Positions 9,489-64,000 of a stretch of DNA of 64,000 bases are shown here, in pieces. The position numbers and the translations under genes are program-made. The notes under the pieces are model-generated. The model had not been told where the DNA came from and made no database searches. It saw only the letters and a program-made list of their open reading frames with translations. Origin of the DNA: Escherichia phage vB_EcoM-Ro157lw. Position 1 is the stretch's first letter. Every line of letters starts with the position of its first letter. Location: sequence record MH051335.1; one strand, given 5' to 3'.

Positions 9489-10106
9489 ATGACTTTCCAA
9501 ACTAGTGTAGGCCGTCAATATACAACTGGCTTTCCTGGCGACATCGTTCGCGACGGCCCACAGCGTGGGAAGCCAGGCCGAATTGCCAACGCTAACGAAG
9601 GCGCAAACGTAAACGCCATCAGCCGTGTGTTCGGTTTTAAGACTGACGTATCCTTAATGGGTACTGGTCAAACCAAAACTTTGGGCGCGCAGGACTTTGA
9701 AGTTGAGCTGGGCGGCACTAACTACTACGGCATCCTCGGCAATAGCAAGCGTTACGCGCTGTATGGCAACTCTACTGGTCCTTTGGGTGCCAGCATGGTT
9801 CTGCCTCAATATAGCGAAGGCGAGTTCTATGATATGTGCACGGGCCTCGTAGTTGAAGTATTCAACCCAAGCACCAGTCCGCAGACGCTTAACTATGGCG
9901 ACCTGCTTGCTTATGTACCTAAAGGCATTTCCAGCGGTAACAACCCGAACAACTTGCCTATTGGTGCAATTATCGCCTATACTGGCTCATTGCCAACTGG
10001 CATGGTTGCCATCCCAGGCGGTATTGTGATTGACCCGACGACTATTGCCCTTTCCGGCCCAAGCGTCCAGTCTTCCACTTATACCATTGTACAATTGACT
10101 CGTTAA
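9489..10106 (+). CDS. head structural protein (decoration or minor capsid candidate)
   Basis: Immediately upstream of the major capsid gene; Gly-rich; RBS AAAGGGG. Confidence 0.4.
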   Translation: MTFQTSVGRQYTTGFPGDIVRDGPQRGKPGRIANANEGANVNAISRVFGFKTDVSLMGTGQTKTLGAQDFEVELGGTNYYGILGNSKRYALYGNSTGPLGASMVLPQYSEGEFYDMCTGLVVEVFNPSTSPQTLNYGDLLAYVPKGISSGNNPNNLPIGAIIAYTGSLPTGMVAIPGGIVIDPTTIALSGPSVQSSTYTIVQLTR

Positions 10107-36069: not shown

Positions 36070-36488
36070 GACAATTCCTCTAAATACTTGATGATGTGAT
36101 GGATGGACCCGCTCGCGGCGACCATATCCAAAATCTCACCCTTAGTATATTCTTTTAATCGCAATGAAGGGTGAACTAAATAATAAGCCTTTTCAGAATC
36201 TACCTTCAGCAGCACAAATGACGAGAACTTCCAATCATTCCAAGAAGTCAAAAAGCTTTGTTGGCCTTTCTCAAATGCACTTTTAAAAGGAAGAGTGGTG
36301 GCCCTTGCAGGCCACGATTCAAAAAACTTCATTTCAAGCCAAAAGCCGCGCCCTTTCCGGTTGGTGCCGATTACATCCGGCACACCATCACCCGTCATGG
36401 ATTCGATTCTTTGAAGCTTCAGTACTGATTCTGAATGCTTCTTCAAAGGAACGAAAATGTATTTTTGTTCACGGTTATTTGTTGCCAT
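36066..36488 (-). CDS. VRR-NUC domain nuclease (PD-(D/E)xK fold)
   Basis: GVPDVIG...GFWLEMK matches the D...E-x-K catalytic pattern; adjacent to SNF2 helicase. Confidence 0.55.
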   Translation of the reverse strand: MATNNREQKYIFVPLKKHSESVLKLQRIESMTGDGVPDVIGTNRKGRGFWLEMKFFESWPARATTLPFKSAFEKGQQSFLTSWNDWKFSSFVLLKVDSEKAYYLVHPSLRLKEYTKGEILDMVAASGSIHHIIKYLEELS

Positions 36489-37131
36489 CTGGATACACCT
36501 GTTTGATCACGTCGACTATAAACATGTCAATGCCTTCAAGCTTTCGACCTTTCATCAGGAAGAATGCACCGTTCCCGACGTTCTCTGCAATGTATTTCCC
36601 GTATTTCTGGAACTTCTCTGGACGAATCCTGAAGCGCATTGGCGAGTCGGTCGAGTCGTCCTTGCACATAAGGTCGATGAACTGAGTTTCAAGCTTGTTT
36701 CCATACTGATCAAACTCTGCGTAGCGGCCATCGGCCTGAAGACCCTTTTTAAGCTTGCCGTGCTTTGTATAAATGCCGCGCTCAAGACGTTTACGGATGC
36801 GTGTTGCTTCGTTCTCGTCAGCCAGCACTTTCTTGGTCAACTTGCCGATTACTATTGCACGCTCGTCATCGCCGACTTCCTTCATCTGACGTATTGAAGC
36901 ACCGGAAGTAACGCCAATCAGATAGGGGTCATTATACGCCCAGCCAAACTTGGTGTGCATCTCTGTAAGGTCGCCGTATTTGACTTCAGCATTGGCCAAT
37001 GCATCCTTTTGTTTTTGCGTTAAGGTTCCGGCTTCACGTGCTTCGATGTACTTCATCGCTTTCACCATTCCGTACCCTTTAGCGTTCATGATGCCGCCAA
37101 TTAGCTTTCCGTTAGCGATTGGCCAATGCAT
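36475..37131 (-). CDS. dnaE: DNA polymerase III alpha-like protein, C-terminal fragment (separated from the N-terminal ORF by a frameshifting 127-bp duplication)
   Basis: First 45 residues duplicate the last 45 residues of the upstream ORF 37112-39499; removing one copy of the duplication fuses both ORFs in frame. Confidence 0.6.
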   Translation of the reverse strand: MHWPIANGKLIGGIMNAKGYGMVKAMKYIEAREAGTLTQKQKDALANAEVKYGDLTEMHTKFGWAYNDPYLIGVTSGASIRQMKEVGDDERAIVIGKLTKKVLADENEATRIRKRLERGIYTKHGKLKKGLQADGRYAEFDQYGNKLETQFIDLMCKDDSTDSPMRFRIRPEKFQKYGKYIAENVGNGAFFLMKGRKLEGIDMFIVDVIKQVYPDGNK

Positions 37132-37246
37132 CCTTTTGTTTTTGCGTTAAGGTTCCGGCTTCACGTGCTTCGATGTACTTCATCGCTTTCACCATTCCGT
37201 ACCCTTTAGCGTTCATGATGCCGCCAATTAGCTTTCCGTTAGCGAT
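36991..37246. repeat. perfect tandem duplication, unit 127 bp (two copies, 36991-37117 and 37118-37244, identity extends 2 nt further)
   Basis: seq[i] equals seq[i+127] across the whole span, read directly; lies inside the polymerase coding region. Confidence 0.9.
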
Positions 37247-39499
37247 GGTCCAGTTCATTGAAGAGTGATCAGGGTCGATTGGCACATAATCCACGCCTTC
37301 CTTTGCAAGTTCACGTAATATCGCAATCGTCTGGTCTTCGTCCTTGGCAGCGCGTAAGCAAGCAGCGGCAAATTCCAACGGATAGTGTCGTTTAAGCCAC
37401 AAGGTCCAGTAGGTCACGACCGCGTATGATACGGAGTGTGACTTGTTAAATCCCCATGACCCGAACGTCGCCATTGCTTGCCAAAGCTTTCTTGCATCAG
37501 CTTCCGGTACGCCGTTATTTATTGCGCCTGCAACGAAGTCTTCGCCAAGCTTGTTAAAGTATTCCTCACCCTTACGGCCTGACATCGCCTTACGTACAGC
37601 GGATGTCTTCGCCCAGTCAAATGAACCAATCTCTTTAACCACGGCCATGATTTGCTCTTGGTAAAGAAACACGCCGTAAGTCTCTTTTAAGTACGGCTCA
37701 AGCTGCGGCACGTCGTACTCAATCGGCGCACGTCCTGCCGCGCGTTCGATGTATTTCTGGGCCATACCGGATGACAACGGGCCAGGTCGGCCAAGTGCTG
37801 TCAGGTTATCGATTTTGTTAAAGTTATCAACGTGCACAAAGTTGGTTACTGAGCGTACAGCGTCGCCTTCGAACTGGAAGATTCCTGACATCTTATTTTC
37901 GTTAAGGATGTCAAGGACGCTTTGATCATTGAGCTTGATTCCGTACAGTGTTTCAGCATCTATCACGCCAGTATCAGAAATGATGCCGAGGGTACGAAGG
38001 CCCAATGCATCAAGCTTCAAAAGGTTAAGGTATTCGCTGTCAGGCTTATCAATTTGTGCAATCCCTTCCGCCGTTACCGTACAGTAATCAGAGATTGGAT
38101 CATTACACACGATGATTCCCGCTGCGTGAACGCCAGTGTGGGAAGGGTGAATTTCAAGGTCACCCATGCATCGCGCGGCATCAGGATATTTAGCCACAAA
38201 CTCTTGGCCCGTGGTCGTTGTTGCAAAGGTGTCCTCCAGGCCGTGGCCATAACGGGCGTCACCGGATGAGTATTCAAGCAATGCGTTTTTAATGTTGGCC
38301 GTTTCGTGATATCCAATGTTGAATTTCTTACCAACCTGAGCCATTACTGAGTTGGCCTTAAGCGTGTTGATGTTGCCAAGCTTTGCAACGTTCATTTCGC
38401 CGTATTTTTCTTTAAGGTAATCAAACACCATATAGCGTTTGGTATCCTCAAAGTCAATATCAATATCAGGAAGGTCTGCGCGGCTTACGTCAATGAATCG
38501 GGCAAACAGTAGCTTATACGGGATTGGGTCAACTTCCGTGATGCCGAGGCAATAACAAACCAGTGAACCAGCCGATGAGCCGCGAGCGGGTCCGACGAGC
38601 ATTTTTGTTTTTGCGAATCGTACAAGGTCCGCTACCACCAGAAAGTATGAGTCGAAATCTTTCAGCTGAATCTGGTGAATCTCTTCGTTGAATCGGTCCT
38701 CATATTCCTGAGTCCATTCTTTGATGTGGCCTGCCTTAAGGCGGTACTCCATCCCCTCACGAGCAAGCTTTACCATGTCACCAGCAAGGTGGATAATCGG
38801 TGCCTTGCGCAGCTTCAGGTCAAGTCCCACGATTCCGTTTGCAATGTCAACTGCATTGGCCGTTGCTTGATTCAACTCATCTTCGGTCAATATTCCTTTA
38901 AGCTGTTTGCGCAAGTCTTCCGCGTCAACGATACAGTGCGGCTTGACCGTGTCGCGCACTTCCCAAGCATAAGCAAAGTCAACGTGCTCAGGTGAAGGCA
39001 TGTGGTTGTATCCGGTTAAAACCAGCGGCCTTCCGTTGCTGCGGTGAGCCAATACCTGGCGCTTGGCCAAAAGGAACGATGATGGGTTGACGTCTATATA
39101 ATCGTAGTCCTCTGGCCGCAGCAACTCCACGGCCCCGCCACAGAATTTAACGACGCCATCGAGCGCCCCGAACTCTGCACGGGTCAGTCCGCCGCGCTGT
39201 GTTGCAAGCGTGGTCGCGTTGTAAAAGGATTTCAGGTCAAGCGCCAATATCCAAGCCTTCGGTTTGAATCCCTTTTTCGGGTCCGCATCAGGGTCGATGA
39301 TTGGAATTTCCATGCCGAACATAGGCTTAATATCATTTTTCTGGCACTCCTTTTCCCATCGAACGTGACCCCATGTATTGTTATCAACTAATGCCGCGAC
39401 TTCGCAGCCCAACTCTTTGAGCCGTGCTATAATTTCAGGATGCCGTCCATATACTTCTTTGAACGTGTAACCGCTGCGAACTCTCAATTGTGGAAACAT
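37112..39499 (-). CDS. dnaE: DNA polymerase III alpha-like replicative polymerase (PHP plus polymerase core), N-terminal 795 aa
   Basis: N-terminal PHP-like domain and large polymerase core; TAATG overlap with the upstream exonuclease gene. Confidence 0.75.
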   Translation of the reverse strand: MFPQLRVRSGYTFKEVYGRHPEIIARLKELGCEVAALVDNNTWGHVRWEKECQKNDIKPMFGMEIPIIDPDADPKKGFKPKAWILALDLKSFYNATTLATQRGGLTRAEFGALDGVVKFCGGAVELLRPEDYDYIDVNPSSFLLAKRQVLAHRSNGRPLVLTGYNHMPSPEHVDFAYAWEVRDTVKPHCIVDAEDLRKQLKGILTEDELNQATANAVDIANGIVGLDLKLRKAPIIHLAGDMVKLAREGMEYRLKAGHIKEWTQEYEDRFNEEIHQIQLKDFDSYFLVVADLVRFAKTKMLVGPARGSSAGSLVCYCLGITEVDPIPYKLLFARFIDVSRADLPDIDIDFEDTKRYMVFDYLKEKYGEMNVAKLGNINTLKANSVMAQVGKKFNIGYHETANIKNALLEYSSGDARYGHGLEDTFATTTTGQEFVAKYPDAARCMGDLEIHPSHTGVHAAGIIVCNDPISDYCTVTAEGIAQIDKPDSEYLNLLKLDALGLRTLGIISDTGVIDAETLYGIKLNDQSVLDILNENKMSGIFQFEGDAVRSVTNFVHVDNFNKIDNLTALGRPGPLSSGMAQKYIERAAGRAPIEYDVPQLEPYLKETYGVFLYQEQIMAVVKEIGSFDWAKTSAVRKAMSGRKGEEYFNKLGEDFVAGAINNGVPEADARKLWQAMATFGSWGFNKSHSVSYAVVTYWTLWLKRHYPLEFAAACLRAAKDEDQTIAILRELAKEGVDYVPIDPDHSSMNWTIANGKLIGGIMNAKGYGMVKAMKYIEAREAGTLTQKQKDALANR

Positions 39500-54353: not shown

Positions 54354-54589
54354 TGGAAGATTATATCAATGCGATGTACATGGCATTCTATGTCGTGCAG
54401 CTTCCCAATGGCGCGGTATTTTATGGCGAGTACACCTTTGACGTTCAATATGACGTCTCAGAGCGTACAGTGTTAACAAGGGAGTTGATTGCGGACCTTA
54501 AGGACGACATCAAGCGCGTCGCGCGGCAGCAGTTCAATTTGGATGACACCGTAATTGTTCGCATCACCGGAATAACAGAGGTGCAGTGA
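54353..54589 (+). CDS. hypothetical protein (78 aa)
   Basis: TAATG stop/start overlap. Confidence 0.4.
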   Translation: MEDYINAMYMAFYVVQLPNGAVFYGEYTFDVQYDVSERTVLTRELIADLKDDIKRVARQQFNLDDTVIVRITGITEVQ

Positions 54590-54918
54590 TGACCCGTGAT
54601 CAGATACTCGCCGCGCATGAGCGTGAAAAGGTTAAAGATATTTGTAAAAGGCACAGATTATTTGCTGACTCTTACGTCTTCTTAAAGTCCTGCATCAAGC
54701 AAAACGCAAGGATGGATAACACCGTATTGACATTCAACCTTTTGTCTAACGGAGCAAAGCTTGATGCGATATGCGGATGCAGAATTGCCAGCAATAACTT
54801 CGCCCAAAGAGAGAGGAAAGATGCATTCATCTACCGATTCTCTTACCGGATTGGAGACACAAAGATAACAAGGACAAGGCACGAGATAGAGATTGACCTA
54901 CTCCACTATGTAAAATGA
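54586..54918 (+). CDS. hypothetical protein (110 aa)
   Basis: Overlapping start. Confidence 0.4.
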   Translation: MMTRDQILAAHEREKVKDICKRHRLFADSYVFLKSCIKQNARMDNTVLTFNLLSNGAKLDAICGCRIASNNFAQRERKDAFIYRFSYRIGDTKITRTRHEIEIDLLHYVK

Positions 54919-54921
54919 ATA

Positions 54922-54951
54922 TCAAAAAGGTGAGCTAAATGCTTGCCTTTT
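54922..54951 (+). repeat. 30-bp element TCAAAAAGGTGAGCTAAATGCTTGCCTTTT, copy 1
   Basis: Identical 30-mer recurs at 56462-56491; contains AAGGTGA plus ATG. Confidence 0.7.
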
Positions 54952-55003
54952 CTTTTATCAATACTTATACTCTTTTCATCAAGACTGACAAGCGAGGTGA
55001 ATT

Positions 55004-55321
55004 ATGATTTACTTAGGCATCGACAAGGAACAAGACGAGCGGTTAGGAAGCGTGTTAAACTTAGACTTGAACACAGCTGTACACACCAAGCCTTGGCCAG
55101 AGGCGCACCCCGACGTAGTTGTACCCGTTGCACCTTGGGCGCGTTACGTTGCCATTGACGATAACGGCCTTGTCCATTGTTATTCAGAAAGGCCAACGTA
55201 TTTCGAGCTTCACCGCGAATGGCTGATGACTGGATGGGCAAAGGTGCGCTGCTGCGGCGAAGTCGGTCTGGAAGGATGGGGATTCAAGGCTAGTGAATCG
55301 TGTGTCGAGGTGCAATTATGA
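55004..55321 (+). CDS. hypothetical protein (105 aa)
   Basis: RBS GAGGTG. Confidence 0.4.
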   Translation: MIYLGIDKEQDERLGSVLNLDLNTAVHTKPWPEAHPDVVVPVAPWARYVAIDDNGLVHCYSERPTYFELHREWLMTGWAKVRCCGEVGLEGWGFKASESCVEVQL

Positions 55322-55536
55322 ATGCCGCGCTGGGTAAGTTGTCTTTTAACAAGCGCAATGAGTTGCGCATGGTGTCTCGTTTTCAGTTTTTATTAAATGC
55401 TATGTCAAGCGTTGCCATAACAATGCTTCGCGCCGATTGCCCTGCTGAAAAGCGTGAGACTTTATTTGAACGTCATAAACAATTACAAAAGGCTGCGTTT
55501 AAGCTGCAGCAATACGCTATGGAGTATGCAAAATGA
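55318..55536 (+). CDS. hypothetical protein (72 aa)
   Basis: Overlapping stop/start. Confidence 0.4.
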   Translation: MNAALGKLSFNKRNELRMVSRFQFLLNAMSSVAITMLRADCPAEKRETLFERHKQLQKAAFKLQQYAMEYAK

Positions 55537-55817
55537 AGGTGCAACGCTGCCCACATTGCTTGTTAACTATGCGACTTCCTGTTGAAGAATATTTACATCA
55601 CGTTAATGTTTGTGAAGCTAATCCTGAAAATTCGACGCGTTACTATTATCACTATCACGCAGAAGCGGAAGATGGATCAGGCGCAACAGGAATCGTTACC
55701 ACGAAAGAAATGGTTATCACCAAAAAGGCGTATGAAAGCCTGCTGGATACAATAAAGGAAGTATCTGGAAAAGAAATAATCTGCATCAAATCTTTGTCTT
55801 TCTTACACGAGGTGTAA
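55533..55817 (+). CDS. small zinc-finger-like protein (CPHC...H...C)
   Basis: N-terminus MKVQRCPHCLLTMRLPVEEYLHHVNVCEANPEN; paralog of the next gene. Confidence 0.45.
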   Translation: MKVQRCPHCLLTMRLPVEEYLHHVNVCEANPENSTRYYYHYHAEAEDGSGATGIVTTKEMVITKKAYESLLDTIKEVSGKEIICIKSLSFLHEV

Positions 55818-55818
55818 A

Positions 55819-56202
55819 ATGAGAATGAAACGTTGTCCGTATTGCCACGATGTGATGCATCTTCCGCATGAAGAGTTCGTGCAGCACATGGCTAATTGCG
55901 ATAAGAATCCTAATAGCGAGAGTCAGCTTGAAGAAAGAATGTTCTTGGTGTCATTCAAGTATTCAGCTTACGATACACAGCCTGCTTATGGTGCACAAAG
56001 TGCTGCTTACAGACCGATGACATTGAGAAGTGACATTGACTCGATGCAGCTTGCGGCCTGGATTAACGTTAAGGAAGGCATCACATGGCACTTTATCGCG
56101 CGCATCCAATCCCAGATTCTACAAATCAAGCGCGAATACAACCGTGACATCACTGAAGTGAAGGTGCTTTCCATTACGCCGATGAATAAGGAGTTGCCGT
56201 GA
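55819..56202 (+). CDS. small zinc-finger-like protein (CPYC...H...C), tandem paralog
   Basis: N-terminus MRMKRCPYCHDVMHLPHEEFVQHMANCDKNPNS aligns residue-by-residue with the previous ORF. Confidence 0.45.
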   Translation: MRMKRCPYCHDVMHLPHEEFVQHMANCDKNPNSESQLEERMFLVSFKYSAYDTQPAYGAQSAAYRPMTLRSDIDSMQLAAWINVKEGITWHFIARIQSQILQIKREYNRDITEVKVLSITPMNKELP

Positions 56203-56513
56203 ACAAGGGTCCGATGACTAAGCTGGCCGTTGCCGCGCGGAAGCTTCGACAAGCCGTTAATGGGTCGCGGCCCGTGGTGTTAACACTCGACGATGCAAAG
56301 GCACTGGTAGAGCTACTCGACGAGCACAACCGACGCAAGAATCTGGAGAACACATTACGCTGGCGCGTCACCCCCAGCAGGGCGGGAGAGCGAGAAGAAA
56401 GCTTACTTGCGACGCAAACTAAGGTCGGTCGGCCTCCACGAAGAGGCGAAGAAGATTTGATTCAAAAAGGTGAGCTAAATGCTTGCCTTTTTATTTGCCT
56501 GTATTATACTTAG
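56199..56513 (+). CDS. hypothetical protein (104 aa); 3' end runs through the 30-bp repeat
   Basis: ORF in six-frame track; true stop uncertain. Confidence 0.3.
   Translation: MNKGPMTKLAVAARKLRQAVNGSRPVVLTLDDAKALVELLDEHNRRKNLENTLRWRVTPSRAGEREESLLATQTKVGRPPRRGEEDLIQKGELNACLFICLYYT
56462..56491 (+). repeat. 30-bp element TCAAAAAGGTGAGCTAAATGCTTGCCTTTT, copy 2
   Basis: Identical to 54922-54951. Confidence 0.7.
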
Positions 56514-56538
56514 TTCATCAAGCAAAGGAGATTTGATT

Positions 56539-56844
56539 ATGAGTACCGAAGCAATGAAGAAAAAGGTTTTGAACGCTTTGCAAGAAGCCGTGAATTGTGG
56601 TGCTATTAAAGCCTTCAAGGAGACTCAAGAAGGCGGTGAGCCAGTATTCTTCTTCAAGAATAAAAAGGACGGCGTTGCAGCAATCATGCTGTTAAAGAAT
56701 AGTGCTGACACATTTATCCTTTGCGTCGGAGGGTATGACCTTATCGTTAATGATGTATTTATCAATTGTGCCGACGGCCTTGACCCTATGTTGACATTTG
56801 AGCGTCGCGCCATCCGTGTTGCGACATTTGGAGGGAAGTTATGA
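56539..56844 (+). CDS. hypothetical protein (101 aa)
   Basis: Strong RBS AAAGGAG before ATG 56539; N-terminal region related to N-terminus of 57301-57804. Confidence 0.4.
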   Translation: MSTEAMKKKVLNALQEAVNCGAIKAFKETQEGGEPVFFFKNKKDGVAAIMLLKNSADTFILCVGGYDLIVNDVFINCADGLDPMLTFERRAIRVATFGGKL

Positions 56845-57134
56845 GACTAAGCCTAGCGCAAATTCAAACATTGTACCGAATGGAAGACGGCACGCCATAC
56901 ATGCTGCGCGGCGACCGCAAGAAGGCTTATGAAAAGCGGCCATCACTGTTCCACGACATCAATGCGCCATCAATCCCTGTCTTATTCCGGTTGGGCCTTG
57001 TTGATTGGGCGGTGCCAGGAGAGAAAGACCCGACGCGCTATTCATCCGTGGTGATGACAAAAGCAGGTCGCGCGGCATTAAAAGAAATTAAAGAGAATAT
57101 GACTGGAGGTAAATATTATGACATCCAACCTTAA
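56841..57134 (+). CDS. hypothetical protein (97 aa)
   Basis: Overlapping stop/start. Confidence 0.4.
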   Translation: MRLSLAQIQTLYRMEDGTPYMLRGDRKKAYEKRPSLFHDINAPSIPVLFRLGLVDWAVPGEKDPTRYSSVVMTKAGRAALKEIKENMTGGKYYDIQP

Positions 57135-58145: not shown

Positions 58146-58460
58146 AAACTCTTCACTTGCATGCGCAATCGCTTGCATCTAAGTTTGGATTCATGGACGG
58201 TGACATCGTGTCACTTTTCTGTGAAGAAATAATATTGAATCAGAATTAAAAGATAAGGACTCGCACGACGTTTTAATCAAATTAGTAAGGAAGCACCTTT
58301 TGCCTTTGGTGAGTCATGTTAAGGTATTTGAAATATTAACGATGCACAACCCGATACGCTGTGAAGATGACTTCATTGATGAGATGCGTCACAGCGATGT
58401 TCAAGTTGAAGTGGGCCTTGAAGAAGTGTTACAGTGCATTAAAGAAACGGAGAAATTCGA

Positions 58461-59968: not shown

Positions 59969-60240
59969 TGGATAAAAGAACAATTGTTTACGTGTTTTGA
60001 ATAATGGGATGTGTACAATGGGTCGCTTTACGCGGCCTTTTGTTGTTTTGGTCGTGTTTCTTGATGGAATAATTATGAGGCGATGTTTTATTTATTAATT
60101 GTGCGGAAATATTTAGAAATATATATAAACAGGATTGTTAATATTTTAATAGCGTATGACTATTGGTCCGTGGTGTTTGTTAGGAATTATCTATGGATTG
60201 AAATTTTAGTGTCGTGAAACGTGGTGTTTGAACACATTTG

Positions 60241-60600
60241 ATACGCGTAAAATACGGCTAAAAATTAAGCGTATCATGGCTGCAGGCCGCGCCGTTCCTG
60301 GATTCATCCTTTCCAAATTGGTACACCCTTACGTCATGATACGTCATGGTTTTTTATCCGTATCAGTGTACAGCCCTTGCCGCGCCTGGCTTGTACATTA
60401 ATCTTACGGATGATACGGATAAAACTGGGCATCGTTATATATATAATTTGAAAAATTAATTAACTCCATTTTGAATTAATTTAAATTAATTTTTTCTACA
60501 TCCTCATACTTATGTTAATTTATATATTTAACGTATTATCCGTAAGATATAAGTAAAAACAAAGACTTGCGGCAATACGGATGATACGTCATGATACGCT
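60241..60600. repeat. second iteron-like region: ATCCGTATCA-family repeats flanking an AT-rich core
   Basis: TTATCCGTATCAG, CTTACGGATGATACGGATAAAA, TTATCCGTAAG, ATACGGATGATACGTCATGATACG read directly; AT-rich core 60431-60520. Confidence 0.7.
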
Positions 60601-60826
60601 TCAACCAGCCAGCAGCGGCTAAGTCATTGATTTGCATAACACGCGGCGAAAGGGATGGATTTCTTTTATACGTATCAAACAGTACACCAAGCACCACGGT
60701 CCGCTATTCATTAAGCATTGTGATTTATGTACGTTTACAGCCAATTTGAACATCAATCTGCACTTGAATATAATGTTCAATCATTGTATAATTCACACTA
60801 TTAATTTGCACTATGGGATTTGCACT

Positions 60827-61300
60827 ATGAGTCAAGATTATGTAGCAATGCCTGAAGACTTTGAAGACCCGCGATTTGCAGAGCATAATCAGGCATTATT
60901 CGATGAGTTCATTGACCTTGTTATTCAGGGCCATGACATGCGCGCAGCTTTTGCACTAGTATTTGGCATGGAGGTTGCGACCGATAACTACACTGGCCAG
61001 CGAATCCTCTGCACGCAACGCAATCCGTACTACAAGATGCGCTACAAAAAGCGTATGGAAGAGATGCCATTGAAGGAATTGTGGAGCGTAAAGAGTTCCA
61101 TCCACAATTTAGTGAAGCTTGTGCGTGATCCAGAAGTCGCGGCATCAGCCAAGCTTAATGCCATTCGTGAACTGAATATCATCTACGGCATTACGATGAT
61201 TGATGAAAACGGCAATAGTAAAATGGGCCGTTCCATGGATGATTTCTACAAGGATTTTGGAGAGGCGGCCAAAGAGGGTGAGCAATTCTCCCGCCACTAG
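60827..61300 (+). CDS. hypothetical protein (157 aa); start codon lies inside an ATTTGCACTATG motif
   Basis: ATG 60827 in frame of ORF 60632-61300; no conventional RBS spacing. Confidence 0.4.
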   Translation: MSQDYVAMPEDFEDPRFAEHNQALFDEFIDLVIQGHDMRAAFALVFGMEVATDNYTGQRILCTQRNPYYKMRYKKRMEEMPLKELWSVKSSIHNLVKLVRDPEVAASAKLNAIRELNIIYGITMIDENGNSKMGRSMDDFYKDFGEAAKEGEQFSRH

Positions 61301-61319
61301 CCAATTTGCACTATAAAAC

Positions 61320-61353
61320 GGCCCTAGAACACATTTTCTCCACTTCTAGGGCC
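61320..61353 (+). other. stem-loop GGCCCTAGA...TCTAGGGCC (9-bp stem, 16-nt loop)
   Basis: Perfect inverted repeat directly after the stop at 61300; no U-tract. Confidence 0.3.
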
Positions 61354-61728
61354 ATCGGTAATACGACGGGGAAGGCTGCAACCATAAACGCGTTAGAAAG
61401 TGTATTATTATAAGTCATCTTTTAGTCACTTTACGTAACAATTTACGACCTTCAGCCGTCCAGTCGAACGACTCCACCAGCAGATTTGCACTATAACCTA
61501 AGACGATGCGCCCTTTCTCGTTATCAACCCGCCAACAAGTCTCGAATAGCATTCGATTTGCACTATTAACTATCGCCGCAGCGCGCGTTGGGTAAGCGCA
61601 ATTTGCACTATGGTCGTAAAGGGATAAGGTGCGACCACTTCCGATGGACAACGTAGCGATGAGAATAAGCGTATTCATAAGCCACCAATTTGCACTATGA
61701 AAAGCGACCCCGAAGGGCCGCCATTCGA

Positions 61729-62355
61729 TTAGATGATCTGGAAGGTGTAGGACTTGTTGCCGAACTCAAAGTTTAAGCGCCCAGCTTCCTTGAGCTTCAT
61801 ACGGAAGCGAATGTGCTTGCTATCCGGTAAGCCCAGCGCGGCGAACGCTACGCGGACTGATTTGAACTCGCCTACACCCTCGACCATAACGGCGTTACGC
61901 GTGAGACGCTTTTGCGCCACTTCCTTGTTATCCCAACTTTTTGCAATACCTTCGCTATTCGAACGGCGATGGGAAGGACTGGCAATTTTATCCGCGCCAA
62001 CCGGAGTATCATTCAGGCCGCTCTTGACGAATGCTTCATACTCTTCGTCGGTCATCGCGTCGAGTTCTTCCTGAGTCGGCTCGGCCTTTTTAACGACCGC
62101 ACGCGCCTTATGCGTTTTTACATCGCTGGACACTTCCTCGCACGGCTTCGCGTCTGGAATGGGCGATTCGTTGGACGGCTCATCGAGCGCGTTTAAGGAC
62201 TCGATTAACGCGATGACGCGAGTCTCAGCGGTGCGACGGTCCGCAAACTTCTTAATCGGTTTTGAGCCGGAGTTAGCGTTATAGAACGCAACGAGGTCGG
62301 CGGTCTTAGTTGCGATAACGTCGCCGCTAGTAGAGAAACGATTCAAGCTAACCAT
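61729..62355 (-). CDS. hypothetical protein (208 aa)
   Basis: RBS AGGAG upstream on the minus strand; divergent from the downstream plus-strand genes. Confidence 0.45.
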   Translation of the reverse strand: MVSLNRFSTSGDVIATKTADLVAFYNANSGSKPIKKFADRRTAETRVIALIESLNALDEPSNESPIPDAKPCEEVSSDVKTHKARAVVKKAEPTQEELDAMTDEEYEAFVKSGLNDTPVGADKIASPSHRRSNSEGIAKSWDNKEVAQKRLTRNAVMVEGVGEFKSVRVAFAALGLPDSKHIRFRMKLKEAGRLNFEFGNKSYTFQII

Positions 62356-62496
62356 AATAAACTCCTAGTTTGGGAGCGGCGTTAACGACCTATTCGCTAA
62401 CTCATCCCGTCCCGATATGAGTACATTATAATATAGTGTAGAAAAAAGTAAAGCACTTTTTCGATAAAAATGCGATAAATTATTTTATCTTTTTTC

Positions 62497-62524
62497 TTTA
62501 CTTCTTCGTACACTCGCGTATACT
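62497..62524 (+). promoter_or_regulatory. sigma70-like promoter (TTTACT-16 nt-TATACT), copy 1 of a duplicated promoter-leader module
   Basis: Shares TTCGTACACT spacer core and downstream TTTATATCGAGA with the copy at 62894-62922. Confidence 0.4.
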
Positions 62525-62579
62525 TGTTTATATCGAGACGGGCGATGGCCTTCCTTCTACTAGCATCGGGAGCTTTATT

Positions 62580-62882
62580 ATGACTACTTTAATCTCTTCC
62601 ATCCTTACTTACGACGAAGACCGTTTAACCGTTCGCTCTCTTATCGCCGCCGTTAACGCGGAACTAGAATCCAGCGCCATTAAGGTCCGCGCGGTCGCCT
62701 TCGTCGGCCTCTCCTTCGACGAAATTAAATACGCCGAACGTAGCGCCATCCGCTTCGCGAAGACCGACGACGAAGCCGTCACCCTTATCGAGACGGTTAC
62801 GCCGCGCGACGAAGCGTTAATTATCGTCGAGTATATCGACGTAGAAGGCGATAATGCTTATAAATATTTTATCGCAAAATAA
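62580..62882 (+). CDS. hypothetical protein (100 aa)
   Basis: RBS GGGAG; CG-dinucleotide-rich codon usage distinct from the upstream genome. Confidence 0.45.
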   Translation: MTTLISSILTYDEDRLTVRSLIAAVNAELESSAIKVRAVAFVGLSFDEIKYAERSAIRFAKTDDEAVTLIETVTPRDEALIIVEYIDVEGDNAYKYFIAK

Positions 62883-62893
62883 CGAAAAAGTGC

Positions 62894-62922
62894 TTTACTT
62901 ATTCGTACACTAAGACTATAAT
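62894..62922 (+). promoter_or_regulatory. sigma70-like promoter (TTTACT-17 nt-TATAAT), copy 2
   Basis: Hexamers read directly; same flanking sequence as copy 1. Confidence 0.4.
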
Positions 62923-62989
62923 GTTTTATATCGAGAGGGGATGAGGTAGCGAATAGGTCGCTACCCTCCCGACTAACTAGGAGAATATT

Positions 62990-63280
62990 ATGATTACTTT
63001 ATCCGCTATCCGTTCCGCTCGCGTCGAAACTTCCGAAAACTCTAACGTATTTGGCGAAACCTTAGAGAGCGTTTATCTCTCTAACGTAGACGCGATTATC
63101 GAGTCTATTTATGAGCCGATCAACTTTCTCGACCTTTACAAGTATCGCGACGAGGACATCGTATCCTACCGCGTAACGATTAACGGCTTCGTCTATACGA
63201 TTACCGAAATCGGCGGCGAATATATCGCTGTACCGCAACTCGGCGGCGAAGTAACTTACTTTAAAATCGTAAGCCTTTAA
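62990..63280 (+). CDS. hypothetical protein (96 aa)
   Basis: RBS AGGAG; same leader architecture as 62580-62882. Confidence 0.45.
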   Translation: MITLSAIRSARVETSENSNVFGETLESVYLSNVDAIIESIYEPINFLDLYKYRDEDIVSYRVTINGFVYTITEIGGEYIAVPQLGGEVTYFKIVSL

Positions 63281-63291
63281 GGAGAAGAAAG

Positions 63292-63501
63292 ATGACTAAT
63301 ATGAATAACTCTCTTAACGCGCGCGCCCATCGCACCGCCGTAATCGATATGTTTCGCGAGCTTAAGGAATTATGCGATAATATGAACGCGATGTTATCCA
63401 TCGGCGGCTGGGGATACGAAGAAGAAGTTAAATACGCGGTTATGCGTCGCCGTCGCGATAACGTCCTTGGGCAAATTAAACGCGCCGGATTATTCCTTTA
63501 A
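63292..63501 (+). CDS. hypothetical protein (69 aa)
   Basis: RBS AAGGAG; terminator follows. Confidence 0.4.
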   Translation: MTNMNNSLNARAHRTAVIDMFRELKELCDNMNAMLSIGGWGYEEEVKYAVMRRRRDNVLGQIKRAGLFL

Positions 63502-63527
63502 TTATAATCACCCACCGTTACTAATAG

Positions 63528-63550
63528 GCCGCGCTTAGTCGCGGCTTTTC
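63528..63550 (+). terminator. intrinsic terminator (GCCGCG-CTTAGT-CGCGGC then TTTTCTTCG)
   Basis: 6-bp GC stem plus U-rich tract read directly. Confidence 0.5.
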
Positions 63551-63671
63551 TTCGTCCCTATCTCGATGCGCTTCTCCTCGAAAACTCCTTTATCCTTCCC
63601 TTCTTCGTCGCATAATCTTCGTCGAGATGCGCCTTAGTTCGCATAACAGGTATTACGTTAAATGGAGAACA

Positions 63672-63745
63672 TCGCGTAAGTCGTTGTTTTATATAGACAC
63701 CTATATCGGAACGTTAAGGCGGGTCGCGTAAGTCGTTGTTTTATA
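63672..63745 (+). repeat. two direct copies of TCGCGTAAGTCGTTGTTTTATA spaced 52 bp apart in a non-coding stretch
   Basis: Copies at 63672-63693 and 63724-63745; a further direct repeat AATCATTCGCTTTC occurs at 63871 and 63916. Confidence 0.6.
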
Positions 63746-64000
63746 AAGGCGCAAAACTTTCCCTTCGTTCCGAACTAAAACGAGAAATATGCCGACCCTT
63801 CGCCCGAAAATAGTACGCATGCGAAATTACCGACATCTAGAATAATCCCCACCGATATTATTCTGCGCGCAATCATTCGCTTTCGAACTATTATGCTTCA
63901 TATTATTATGCGTCGAATCATTCGCTTTCTAATTGTAACGCTGGAAACTGTAACGGCGATTGATTATTGCGTTCGTGTGGTTTTTAGGGCATGGGTCTTT

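What the first reader, a model, noticed from the sequence alone, without database searches (positions are those of the whole stretch)
54922..56491. Identical 30-bp element carrying an RBS and start codon recurs twice in the early region
TCAAAAAGGTGAGCTAAATGCTTGCCTTTT occurs at 54922 and 56462. Each encodes the start of a short hydrophobic peptide (MLAF...), the first a 22-codon ORF and the second in frame with the ORF at 56479. It may be a leader-peptide or attenuation element or a recombination hotspot at module boundaries.
Basis: seen in the sequence. Interest (0 to 1): 0.4.

Follow-up and report, generated by a model that had tools for sequence, protein, structure and literature searches.

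The report
Repeated terminator–promoter cassette in Wifcevirus phage
The repeated 30-mer is the hairpin core of a roughly 90-base regulatory cassette (a transcription stop signal, then probably a restart promoter and the next gene's ribosome-binding site) present twice in every known Wifcevirus phage; it is not a leader peptide, but small genes have repeatedly been swapped in and out at its edges.

Summary
In detail: TCAAAAAGGTGAGCTAAATGCTTGCCTTTT is exact at 54922 and 56462, with none expected by chance. The window is a Wifcevirus E. coli myophage, and all 28 Wifcevirus records carry exactly two copies at the same two positions.

The 30-mer is A-tract + 7-bp stem + 5-nt loop + T-tract, the form of a Rho-independent terminator. 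Both sites are already annotated as terminators in phages WFC and WFH. The 3' arm also contains TTGCCT, followed 17/16 nt later by TATACT, then an invariant TTCATCAAG, then the SD and ATG of the next gene.

Across 18 genomes, the blocks the terminator+promoter+RBS model predicts to be functional vary in 1 of 75 columns. Linkers vary in 21 of 66, and flanking genes in 27-43% of columns.

The loop-ATG "MLAF" ORF is not conserved. It ranges from 18 to 72 aa, shifts frame, and carries mostly non-synonymous changes, so the leader-peptide reading is rejected.

The module-boundary idea is supported. Five of 12 clean gene indels in about 7.5 kb sit at the two cassettes and are flanked by direct repeats of cassette sub-segments. 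In WFC the hairpin's 5' arm serves as the real SD of an inserted gene.

This is analogous to the PeSL cassettes of T4-type phages. It is an ordinary kind of element in a new lineage, and no transcript data exist.

The parts
54913..55006 (+). Cassette 1 as a whole: upstream stop codon to downstream start codon
   Evidence: 94.6-98.9% identical over 92 nt in all 28 Wifcevirus records, against 85-93% for the surrounding 4.5 kb
54916..54918 (+). TGA stop of upstream gene 54586..54918, 10 nt before the stem
   Evidence: the same TGA ends the alternative upstream gene in WFC
54924..54956 (+). Terminator 1: A-tract 54924-28, 5' arm GGTGAGC 54929-35, loop TAAAT 54936-40, 3' arm GCTTGCC 54941-47, T-tract TTTTCTTTT 54948-56
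   Evidence: RNA fold -14.2 kcal/mol, z -4.6; flagged by the terminator scan; the homologous site is annotated as a terminator, -10.10, in WFC and WFH; stem invariant in 18/18 genomes
54943..54948 (+). Predicted -35 hexamer TTGCCT, inside the 3' arm and start of the T-tract
   Evidence: invariant
54966..54971 (+). Predicted -10 hexamer TATACT, 17-nt spacer
   Evidence: invariant in 18/18, no indel in the spacer
54975..54983 (+). Invariant TTCATCAAG; predicted transcription start at A 54978, 7 nt after the -10
   Evidence: 0/18 variable columns over both copies; the start site itself is inferred
54994..55006 (+). SD GAGGTGA and ATG (55004) of downstream gene 55004..55321
   Evidence: start annotated in relatives
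54939..55007 (+). Loop-ATG mini-ORF (22 codons), judged non-functional
56458..56541 (+). Cassette 2 as a whole: normal stop position of the upstream gene (TGA 56458-60) to downstream ATG
56464..56496 (+). Terminator 2: A-tract 56464-68, 5' arm 56469-75, loop 56476-80, 3' arm 56481-87, T-tract TTTTTATTT 56488-96
   Evidence: RNA fold -14.7 kcal/mol, z -3.2; annotated as a terminator in WFC/WFH; stem intact in 17/18 genomes, loop varies in 5
56483..56488 (+). Predicted -35 hexamer TTGCCT
56505..56510 (+). Predicted -10 hexamer TATACT, 16-nt spacer
56514..56522 (+). Invariant TTCATCAAG; predicted transcription start at A 56517
   Evidence: the start site itself is inferred
56525..56541 (+). SD AAGGAG and ATG (56539) of downstream gene 56539..56844
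   Evidence: homologous starts annotated in FEC19 and Bas99
55004..56460 (+). Block of five small ORFan genes bracketed by the two cassettes; its length varies from 1.25 to 2.7 kb among relatives

Best explanation
Each copy is a compact regulatory cassette sitting between two genes of a long rightward array of small genes of unknown function. Read 5' to 3', it has four parts. (1) The stop codon of the upstream gene. (2) A Rho-independent terminator: A-tract, 7-bp stem with two G.U pairs, 5-nt loop, U-tract. It stops or attenuates transcription arriving from upstream. (3) A host sigma-70-type promoter whose -35 (TTGCCT) is built into the descending arm and T-tract, with -10 TATACT 16-17 nt later. 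It is predicted to restart transcription at the A of the invariant TTCATCAAG. (4) A short 5'UTR with the Shine-Dalgarno and ATG of the next gene. The two cassettes make the ~1.5-kb five-gene block between them its own transcription unit. The 30-mer is identical at both sites because it is the part under double constraint, as terminator stem and as -35 region. The 'RBS + ATG' in the hairpin is not used to make a conserved peptide here. The cassette sub-segments also act as short homologies at which gene modules are inserted or deleted, and the terminator-promoter core survives every such event. What is shown: sequence, predicted structure, conservation pattern, and junction anatomy. What is inferred: actual termination, promoter activity, start sites, and the recombination mechanism.
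For: The hairpin is stable and strand-specific: -14.2/-14.7 kcal/mol on +, z -4.6/-3.2, and weaker on - because the G.U pairs become A.C. It is followed by 8 U in 9 nt, lies 8-10 nt after a stop codon, and is co-oriented with the genes. Independent ARNold annotation calls both sites terminators in WFC and WFH. Near-identical hairpins occupy post-stop intergenic positions in two unrelated phages. TTGCCT-N17/16-TATACT matches the most conserved sigma-70 positions, TTG and TAnnnT. Across 18 genomes and 36 copies, the a-priori functional blocks vary in 1/75 columns against 21/66 for linkers (Fisher p=4e-7). TTCATCAAG varies in 0/18, and flanking coding DNA in 27-43%. Substitutions fall in the loop, spacer, discriminator, UTR and SD-ATG spacer. 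All five independent 1-nt indels lie downstream of the predicted start, and none lies in the -35/-10 spacer (p~0.007). The distance from TATACT to -35 is fixed, while the distance to the SD differs between copies. All 28 Wifcevirus records have exactly two copies. On recombination, five of 12 clean indel loci sit at the two cassettes (p~1e-3 against ~27 gene boundaries). Their direct repeats are 21/21 (WFC), 19/20 (kaset), 22/24 (Bas101), ~14/18 (CWP003) and 11/17 (RCIP0319).
Against: No transcript 5'/3'-end data exist for any Wifcevirus in the held literature. The stem never varies, so there is no covariation support. The stem is weak: the ARNold -10.10 value is the lowest of the WFC terminators seen in the parts of the record examined, so termination may be only partial. 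A 9/12 promoter match is common by chance, with 35 found against 23 expected in 14 kb, so the promoter call rests on the conservation pattern. There are only two copies, and no genome shows deletion of the block between them. Short-homology indels also occur at non-cassette gene boundaries. The enrichment test assumes independent events and equally permissive boundaries.
Confidence: 0.65

Rival explanations
1. Terminator only. The hairpin stops or attenuates transcription, and the conserved TATACT and TTCATCAAG downstream serve something other than a promoter, such as an mRNA processing or stability site or a translation-related 5'UTR element for read-through transcripts.
For: Terminator evidence as above. 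Promoter-like 9/12 matches are frequent by chance. Other intergenic terminators in this phage are followed directly by an SD and start codon with no promoter.
Against: The invariant hexamers keep a fixed 16-17-nt spacing to TTGCCT in 36/36 copies. Their distance to the SD differs between copies (10 vs 2 nt), and the UTR tolerates indels. Variation falls exactly where a sigma-70 promoter tolerates it: spacer and discriminator. The other terminators lack the extra ~50 conserved nt.
Confidence: 0.2
2. Leader peptide or translation-coupled attenuator. The SD in the 5' arm and the loop ATG drive translation of a short hydrophobic peptide (MLAF...) whose translation controls termination or couples to the downstream gene.
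For: AAGGTGA-N5-ATG is a well-formed RBS. At copy 1 in the window the mini-ORF stop overlaps the next ATG (TTATGA). At copy 2 it is in frame with the next gene in 14/18 genomes. The same AAGGTGA is a true SD in WFC.
Against: ORF length and frame are not conserved: 18-72 aa, three independent frameshifts at copy 1, two at copy 2, and a CGA->TGA truncation in 8 genomes. ATG becomes GTG in 3 genomes. About 9 changes are non-synonymous and 2 synonymous, including radical ones. The invariant N-terminal codons are invariant at all three positions, which indicates a DNA-level rather than a protein-level constraint. The SD is sequestered in the stem. If the predicted promoter fires, the ATG is upstream of the transcript start. 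No alternative structure is found.
Confidence: 0.03
3. Sequence-specific recognition site. The identical 30-mer is bound as RNA or DNA by a phage or host factor (an antiterminator, a repressor overlapping -35, or a nuclease) that times read-through or promoter use. On this view the exact sequence is kept, not just the structure.
For: The stem, including both G.U pairs, is unchanged in 35/36 copies, although single transitions could make Watson-Crick pairs. The loop is invariant at copy 1. Two identical sites per genome recalls paired sites such as lambda nutL/nutR (my own knowledge).
Against: The 3'-arm positions are already explained by the -35 TTG. Only four 5'-arm columns are 'free', and zero changes there is not significant (~0.2 at the linker rate). 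The loop varies in 5 genomes at copy 2. No candidate binding protein was identified, and the neighbouring genes have no recognisable domains.
Confidence: 0.08
4. Functionless repeat: a recent duplication or gene conversion tract, or a chance repeat.
For: The 30-nt identity is exact within one genome.
Against: Zero matches are expected by chance. Both copies are present in all 28 records, with copy-specific flanks conserved genus-wide, so the duplication is old. The core is far more conserved than the neighbouring genes. Loop variants at copy 2 are not mirrored at copy 1, so there is no ongoing homogenisation.
Confidence: 0.02

Closest known systems
PeSL (promoter-early stem-loop) cassettes of T4-type phages (Arbiol et al. 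2010, PMC2839356; Comeau et al. 2014, PMC4122927)
   Same: Both are composite intergenic elements ordered as upstream stop codon, stem-loop terminator/attenuator that may overlap the -35, sigma-70-like -35/-10, then SD and ATG of the next gene. Both have stems containing G-T pairs. The nt-1/KVP40 PeSL stems have the form A3-4 G3-loop-C3 T3-4, close to A5GG..CCT4-5 here. Both flank ORFans in a variable region. In both, indels between related phages have crossovers inside sub-segments of the element: loop, -10 to SD, SD to ATG.
   Different: There are only two copies per genome here, against dozens in T4-type phages. The phage lineage is unrelated (Wifcevirus, PB1-related myoviruses) and there is no sequence homology. 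The promoter is a moderate match rather than a consensus-strength one. Mini-circles and promoter/terminator activity were demonstrated for PeSLs and not here. Many indels in this region use plain SD-ATG homologies away from the cassettes.
Ordinary Rho-independent (intrinsic) terminators, as predicted by ARNold
   Same: It has a hairpin plus U-tract after a stop codon, on the coding strand, and is already annotated as such in GenBank MK373777 and MK373776.
   Different: The 3' arm doubles as a -35, and a conserved ~50-nt promoter/UTR module follows. Other terminators of the same phage lack that module. The same hairpin sequence is used twice.
Leader-peptide attenuators (trp/his-type)
   Same: There is a short ORF with an SD next to a terminator hairpin.
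   Different: The ORF starts inside the terminator loop rather than upstream of it. No antiterminator alternative exists, there are no regulatory codons, and the ORF is not conserved.

Membership tests
Intrinsic (Rho-independent) terminator | Stable G+C-containing stem (about 5-14 bp) with a short loop in the transcript | tested here: met
   7-bp stem (4 G-C, 2 G.U, 1 A-U) extended by A-U pairs, 5-nt loop; -14.2/-14.7 kcal/mol, z -4.6/-3.2; ARNold -10.10
Intrinsic (Rho-independent) terminator | U-rich tract immediately 3' of the stem | tested here: met
   TTTTCTTTT and TTTTTATTT, 8 of 9 T each
Intrinsic (Rho-independent) terminator | Located after a stop codon, co-oriented with the genes | tested here: met
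   Stops at 54916-18 and at 56458-60 (in relatives), 8-10 nt before the stem; all neighbouring genes are on +
Intrinsic (Rho-independent) terminator | Base-pairing maintained by compensatory change | tested here: inconclusive
   The stem is invariant in 35/36 copies, with one disruptive change in SP13. No divergent homologues were found in IMG/VR or metagenomes
Intrinsic (Rho-independent) terminator | Transcript 3' ends at the U-tract in vivo or in vitro | not testable with these tools
   No Wifcevirus transcriptome in the held literature
Sigma-70 promoter | -35 and -10 hexamers with 16-18-nt spacing, key positions TTG and TAnnnT | tested here: met
   TTGCCT-N17-TATACT and TTGCCT-N16-TATACT; hexamers and spacing invariant in 36/36
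Sigma-70 promoter | Initiation by host RNA polymerase at a defined start site | not testable with these tools
   Start predicted at 54978 and 56517 by the 7-nt rule only
PeSL cassette (T4-type phages) | Composite of a sigma-70-like promoter and stem-loop, bounded by the upstream stop and the downstream SD+ATG | tested here: met
   Searches compared with the definition in PMC2839356
PeSL cassette (T4-type phages) | Many copies per genome, clustered in hyperplastic ORFan regions | tested here: not met
   Exactly two copies per genome in 28 records, although they do lie in an ORFan array
PeSL cassette (T4-type phages) | Indels or replacements between related phages with crossovers inside the motif | tested here: met
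   Five indel loci with direct repeats made of cassette sub-segments
PeSL cassette (T4-type phages) | Mini-circle formation by recombination between neighbouring cassettes | not testable with these tools
   Needs inverse PCR on infected cells. No genome lacks the block between the two copies
PeSL cassette (T4-type phages) | Occurrence in T4-like myoviruses / homology to described PeSL sequences | tested here: not met
   The host genome is a Wifcevirus. The element matches only Wifcevirus records, plus six weak 38-nt hairpin hits in jumbo phages of 351-384 kb; the one inspected is an Asteriusvirus
Leader-peptide attenuator | Conserved short ORF whose translation is sensed | tested here: not met
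   Length 18-72 aa, frameshifts, ATG->GTG, mostly non-synonymous change
Leader-peptide attenuator | Mutually exclusive antiterminator and terminator structures | tested here: not met
   The hairpin dominates in four different upstream contexts, no shared alternative is seen, and upstream DNA is replaced in some genomes
Rfam RNA families | Match to a curated covariance model | tested here: not met
   Only MicX at E=0.75, 17.6 bits against a gathering score of 75

The most novel reading that the evidence does not exclude
The cassette is a non-T4 counterpart of PeSLs that works as a 'plug-in socket' for promoterless ORFans. Because the hairpin's 5' arm is itself a good Shine-Dalgarno and the 3' end is an SD-ATG module, a gene carried on a small circle with a partial cassette copy can integrate on either side by 17-24-nt homology. 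It is then expressed at once from the correct operon, and the terminator-promoter core is regenerated. If so, cassette-mediated ORFan capture would be a general route of accessory-gene turnover beyond T4-like phages.
Probability: 0.2. Interest if true: 0.5.

Novelty: new member of a known kind. Interest (0 to 1): 0.25.

Why it matters
The result replaces a speculative leader-peptide reading with a concrete, testable transcription map for a poorly studied phage genus that is used against E. coli O157 and is reported to replicate unusually fast. The map is two internal terminator-promoter junctions that split the long ORFan array into units. It also gives sequence-level evidence, in a lineage unrelated to T4, that small accessory genes are gained and lost at short homologies built from regulatory signals, while the regulatory core itself is preserved. 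That helps anyone engineering these phages, because the cassette edges are natural and tolerated insertion points. It also modestly broadens the PeSL concept. It is not a new kind of element.

Tried and rejected
- **Rfam scan of 54500-56900:** only a noise hit.
- **E. coli complete genomes:** no match to the cassette, so it is not borrowed from the host.
- **Search for further or partial copies in the window:** none. The one extra TTGCCT-N18-TATACT at 9954 lies inside the structural-gene region and has no hairpin.
- **Covariation test of the stem:** impossible, because the stem is invariant.
- **Gene conversion between the two copies:** rejected, because copy-2 loop variants are not mirrored at copy 1 and copy-specific flanks are conserved across the genus.
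- **Antiterminator or riboswitch-like alternative folds:** not found.
- **Function of the bracketed genes:** only two PHROGs of unknown function and one sub-threshold DUF hit.
- **ORF 56199..56513 reading through hairpin 2:** I first considered this a possible translation-termination coupling device. It is explained by a single extra C in a C-run unique to this window.
- **Weak 38-nt jumbo-phage matches and the IMG/VR L010 match:** these are look-alike terminators, not evidence of homology.
- **Insertion of the MSYDERFG gene after copy 2:** it uses only a 7-nt microhomology in WFC but a 19/20 repeat in kaset.
Full report
**Observation.** The 30-mer TCAAAAAGGTGAGCTAAATGCTTGCCTTTT is present exactly at 54922-54951 and 56462-56491 on the + strand. 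No further match appears even with 3 mismatches, and none occurs in 100 shuffles. Similarity does not stop at 30 bp. The two sites align over about 90 nt, from the stop codon of the upstream gene to the start codon of the downstream gene.

**What the window is.** The region is 85-93% identical to Wifcevirus E. coli/Shigella myophages such as FEC19, ECML-117, WFC, Mansfield and BASEL Bas98-101. A 92-nt query spanning copy 1 finds all 28 Wifcevirus records, each with exactly two places, at 94.6-98.9% identity. That is higher than the surrounding DNA. It finds nothing in 5,426 complete E. coli genomes and no Rfam family. The elements lie in a long rightward array of small genes downstream of the primase/P-loop ATPase gene. 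The five genes between them and their neighbours have no recognisable function.

**Anatomy.**
- The 30-mer is an A-tract (AAAAA), a 7-bp stem GGTGAGC/GCTTGCC with two G.U pairs, a 5-nt loop TAAAT, and the start of a T-tract (TTTTCTTTT or TTTTTATTT).
- As RNA on the + strand it folds at -14.2 and -14.7 kcal/mol (z -4.6 and -3.2). On the - strand the G.U pairs become A.C mismatches and the fold is weaker.
- It begins 8-10 nt after the upstream stop codon.
- Both homologous sites are already annotated "putative transcriptional terminator, -10.10" in WFC, and as terminators in WFH. Those calls were made with ARNold. The value is the weakest among the WFC terminators seen in the parts of that record I examined, so partial termination is plausible.
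- Near-identical hairpins sit after stop codons in two unrelated phages. One is an Asteriusvirus jumbo phage, where it lies between convergent genes and has a perfect GGAGAGC/GCTCTCC stem. The other is a 90-kb IMG/VR contig.
- Downstream, the descending arm contains TTGCCT. It is followed 17 nt (copy 1) or 16 nt (copy 2) later by TATACT. Then comes TTCATCAAG, whose A lies 7 nt after the -10. Then comes the SD and ATG of the next gene.

**Conservation test.** I compared 18 genomes (the window plus 17 relatives), giving 36 copies.
- The stem is intact in 35 of 36 copies. SP13 copy 2 carries one disruptive change.
- TATACT and TTCATCAAG are invariant in 36 of 36 copies.
- Substitutions fall in the loop (TAAGT in three genomes, TATAT in two, all at copy 2), the -35/-10 spacer, the discriminator, the 5'UTR and the SD-ATG spacer.
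- The blocks predicted a priori by a terminator+promoter+RBS model are variable in 1 of 75 columns, against 21 of 66 linker columns (Fisher p = 4e-7). The result stays at 5e-6 if TTCATCAAG is counted as linker. Flanking coding DNA is variable in 27-43% of columns.
- All five independent 1-nt indels lie downstream of the predicted start, and none lies in the spacer (p about 0.007).
- The conserved geometry is therefore with the -35. The distance to the SD differs between the copies (10 vs 2 nt).
- Other intergenic terminators of this phage run straight into the next gene's SD and start codon, and lack this extra module.
- Because the stem never varies, and no divergent homologues exist in IMG/VR or the metagenome set, there is no covariation evidence.

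**The mini-ORF.**
- At copy 1 the loop-ATG ORF is 18, 21, 22, 26, 36, 41 or 72 aa, depending on a CGA->TGA change and three independent frameshifts.
- At copy 2 it is in frame with the downstream gene in 14 genomes and out of frame (18 aa) in 4. The loop ATG is GTG in three genomes.
- Changes within it are about 9 non-synonymous, including A->D and F->S in the hydrophobic stretch, against 2 synonymous.
- The invariant first ~15 codons are invariant at all three codon positions, which points to a DNA-level constraint.
- The SD lies in the stem. If the predicted promoter fires, the ATG is upstream of the transcript.
- Folding with 100 nt of upstream sequence, in four different upstream contexts, always gives the terminator hairpin and no shared competitor.
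- The leader-peptide/attenuator reading is therefore rejected.
- The apparent read-through of hairpin 2 by ORF 56199..56513 is due to one extra C in a C-run (56371-56375). Mansfield, FEC19 and WFC lack it. Their gene stops at the TGA/TAA aligned to 56458-56460.

**Module boundaries.** Alternative genes abut all four cassette edges, and reading the junctions shows how they formed.
- In WFC, Bas100 and SP13 an extra 195-nt gene is flanked by a perfect 21-nt direct repeat, AAATGAATATCAAAAAGGTGA. The left copy is a half-cassette whose AAGGTGA is the SD of the inserted gene (AAGGTGAtttATG). The right copy continues into the full hairpin.
- In RCIP0319 a three-gene block starts at GGTGAGgTAAAT-ATG, which is the 5' arm plus loop reused as SD and spacer. 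It ends at the intact cassette 2.
- In Bas101 and kaset, extra genes after cassette 2 are flanked by 22/24 and 19/20 repeats of the UTR-SD-ATG segment. In CWP003 an extra gene after cassette 1 is flanked by a ~14/18 repeat of its SD-ATG segment.
- Relative to the window, I count 12 clean, direct-repeat-flanked indel loci in about 7.5 kb, and 5 of them sit at the two cassettes. The rough binomial p is about 1e-3 against ~27 gene boundaries.
- The other seven use similar SD-spacer-ATG homologies or paralogous gene 5' ends. Short-homology module exchange is therefore a property of the whole array, and the cassettes are its favoured and cleanest sites.
- In every case the terminator-promoter core is left intact. 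No genome has lost the block between the two copies.

**Mechanism.** The best-supported reading is a composite terminator-promoter-RBS cassette that is present twice. It partitions the ORFan array into transcription units, and its sub-segments serve as recombination homologies. The 30-nt identity between copies reflects old paralogy plus double constraint, as stem and as -35. It does not reflect recent duplication or gene conversion, for two reasons: copy-specific flanks are conserved genus-wide, and copy-2 loop variants are not mirrored at copy 1. One inference is not shown: because the stop codon lies only 8-10 nt from the stem, a ribosome terminating on the upstream gene could hinder hairpin formation. 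That would make termination sensitive to translation.

**Comparison with known systems.** The closest described system is the PeSL (promoter-early stem-loop) cassette of T4-type phages. A PeSL has an upstream stop codon, a stem-loop terminator/attenuator that may overlap the -35 and may contain G-T pairs, a sigma-70-like promoter, and the SD and ATG of the next gene. PeSLs flank ORFans, and crossovers have been mapped in the loop, between the -10 and SD, and between the SD and ATG. Some have A3-4G3-loop-C3T3-4 stems (PMC2839356 and PMC4122927). The present element works like a PeSL, but it fails two membership features: many copies per genome, and T4-like lineage or homology. It is therefore an analogue and not a member. 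As a plain intrinsic terminator it is already annotated in GenBank. I found no description of the composite cassette or its junction role in the held Wifcevirus literature.

**Verdict.** The element is a new member of a known kind. Interest is low to moderate, because all functional statements rest on sequence, predicted structure and comparative evidence, with no transcript data.

Noticed in passing
window 36991-37244 (- strand genes 36475..37131 and 37112..39499): An exact 127-nt tandem duplication (two 100% identical copies) is absent from phage WFC. Because 127 is not a multiple of 3, it splits the DnaE-like DNA polymerase III alpha gene, which is a single 2904-nt CDS in WFC, into two ORFs. 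It is either an assembly artefact or a real disruptive duplication.
   Followed up: partly
window 56371-56375: One extra C in a C-run relative to Mansfield, FEC19 and WFC shifts the frame of gene 56199... The ORF then runs past its normal TGA (56458-60), through hairpin 2, to TAG 56511-13. This is a likely sequencing error or a strain-specific frameshift.
   Followed up: yes
window 55533..55817 and 55819..56202: These adjacent genes are paralogues sharing an N-terminal CxxC...H...C motif (MKVQRCPHC / MRMKRCPYC). The first is missing in 11 relatives, and the deletion junction lies in the 26-33-nt homology of the two 5' ends. There is only a sub-threshold DUF7501 hit.
   Followed up: partly
window 58148-58448: A 301-nt segment is absent from 13 relatives and flanked by the repeat GGAGAAnnnnnAATGAAA. 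It contains a terminator-like hairpin at 58199-58215 and only short ORFs.
   Followed up: no
L015 about 605-640 (Asteriusvirus vB_EcoM_JNE01) and L010 357-381, - strand (90-kb IMG/VR contig): Unrelated phages carry nearly the same terminator hairpin after stop codons: AAAAAAGGAGAGC-ttaat-GCTCTCCTTTTCTTTT, and GGTGAGC-gtaat-GCTTGCCTTTTT. This is either convergence on a common terminator design or horizontal spread; it is undecided.
   Followed up: partly
L032 and L034 (metagenome contigs): Two of the unrelated hits to the anchor pattern have TTGCCT or TTGACC exactly at -35, then N17, TATACT, N4, TCATCAAG, followed by an SD and ATG. They look like genuine bacterial promoters with the same start-site context. 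This suggests the TTCATCAAG-type initiation region is not phage-specific.
   Followed up: no
window about 60000-64000: After the last gene of the rightward array there is a strong terminator (60020-60038). A gene-poor stretch follows, dense in near-consensus sigma-70 promoters (for example 60746, 60764, 62894) and short direct repeats (63672-63748, 63855-63942). By comparison with WFC and Mansfield, which have ~3.7-kb terminal repeats, this is probably the terminal-repeat/true early region.
   Followed up: no
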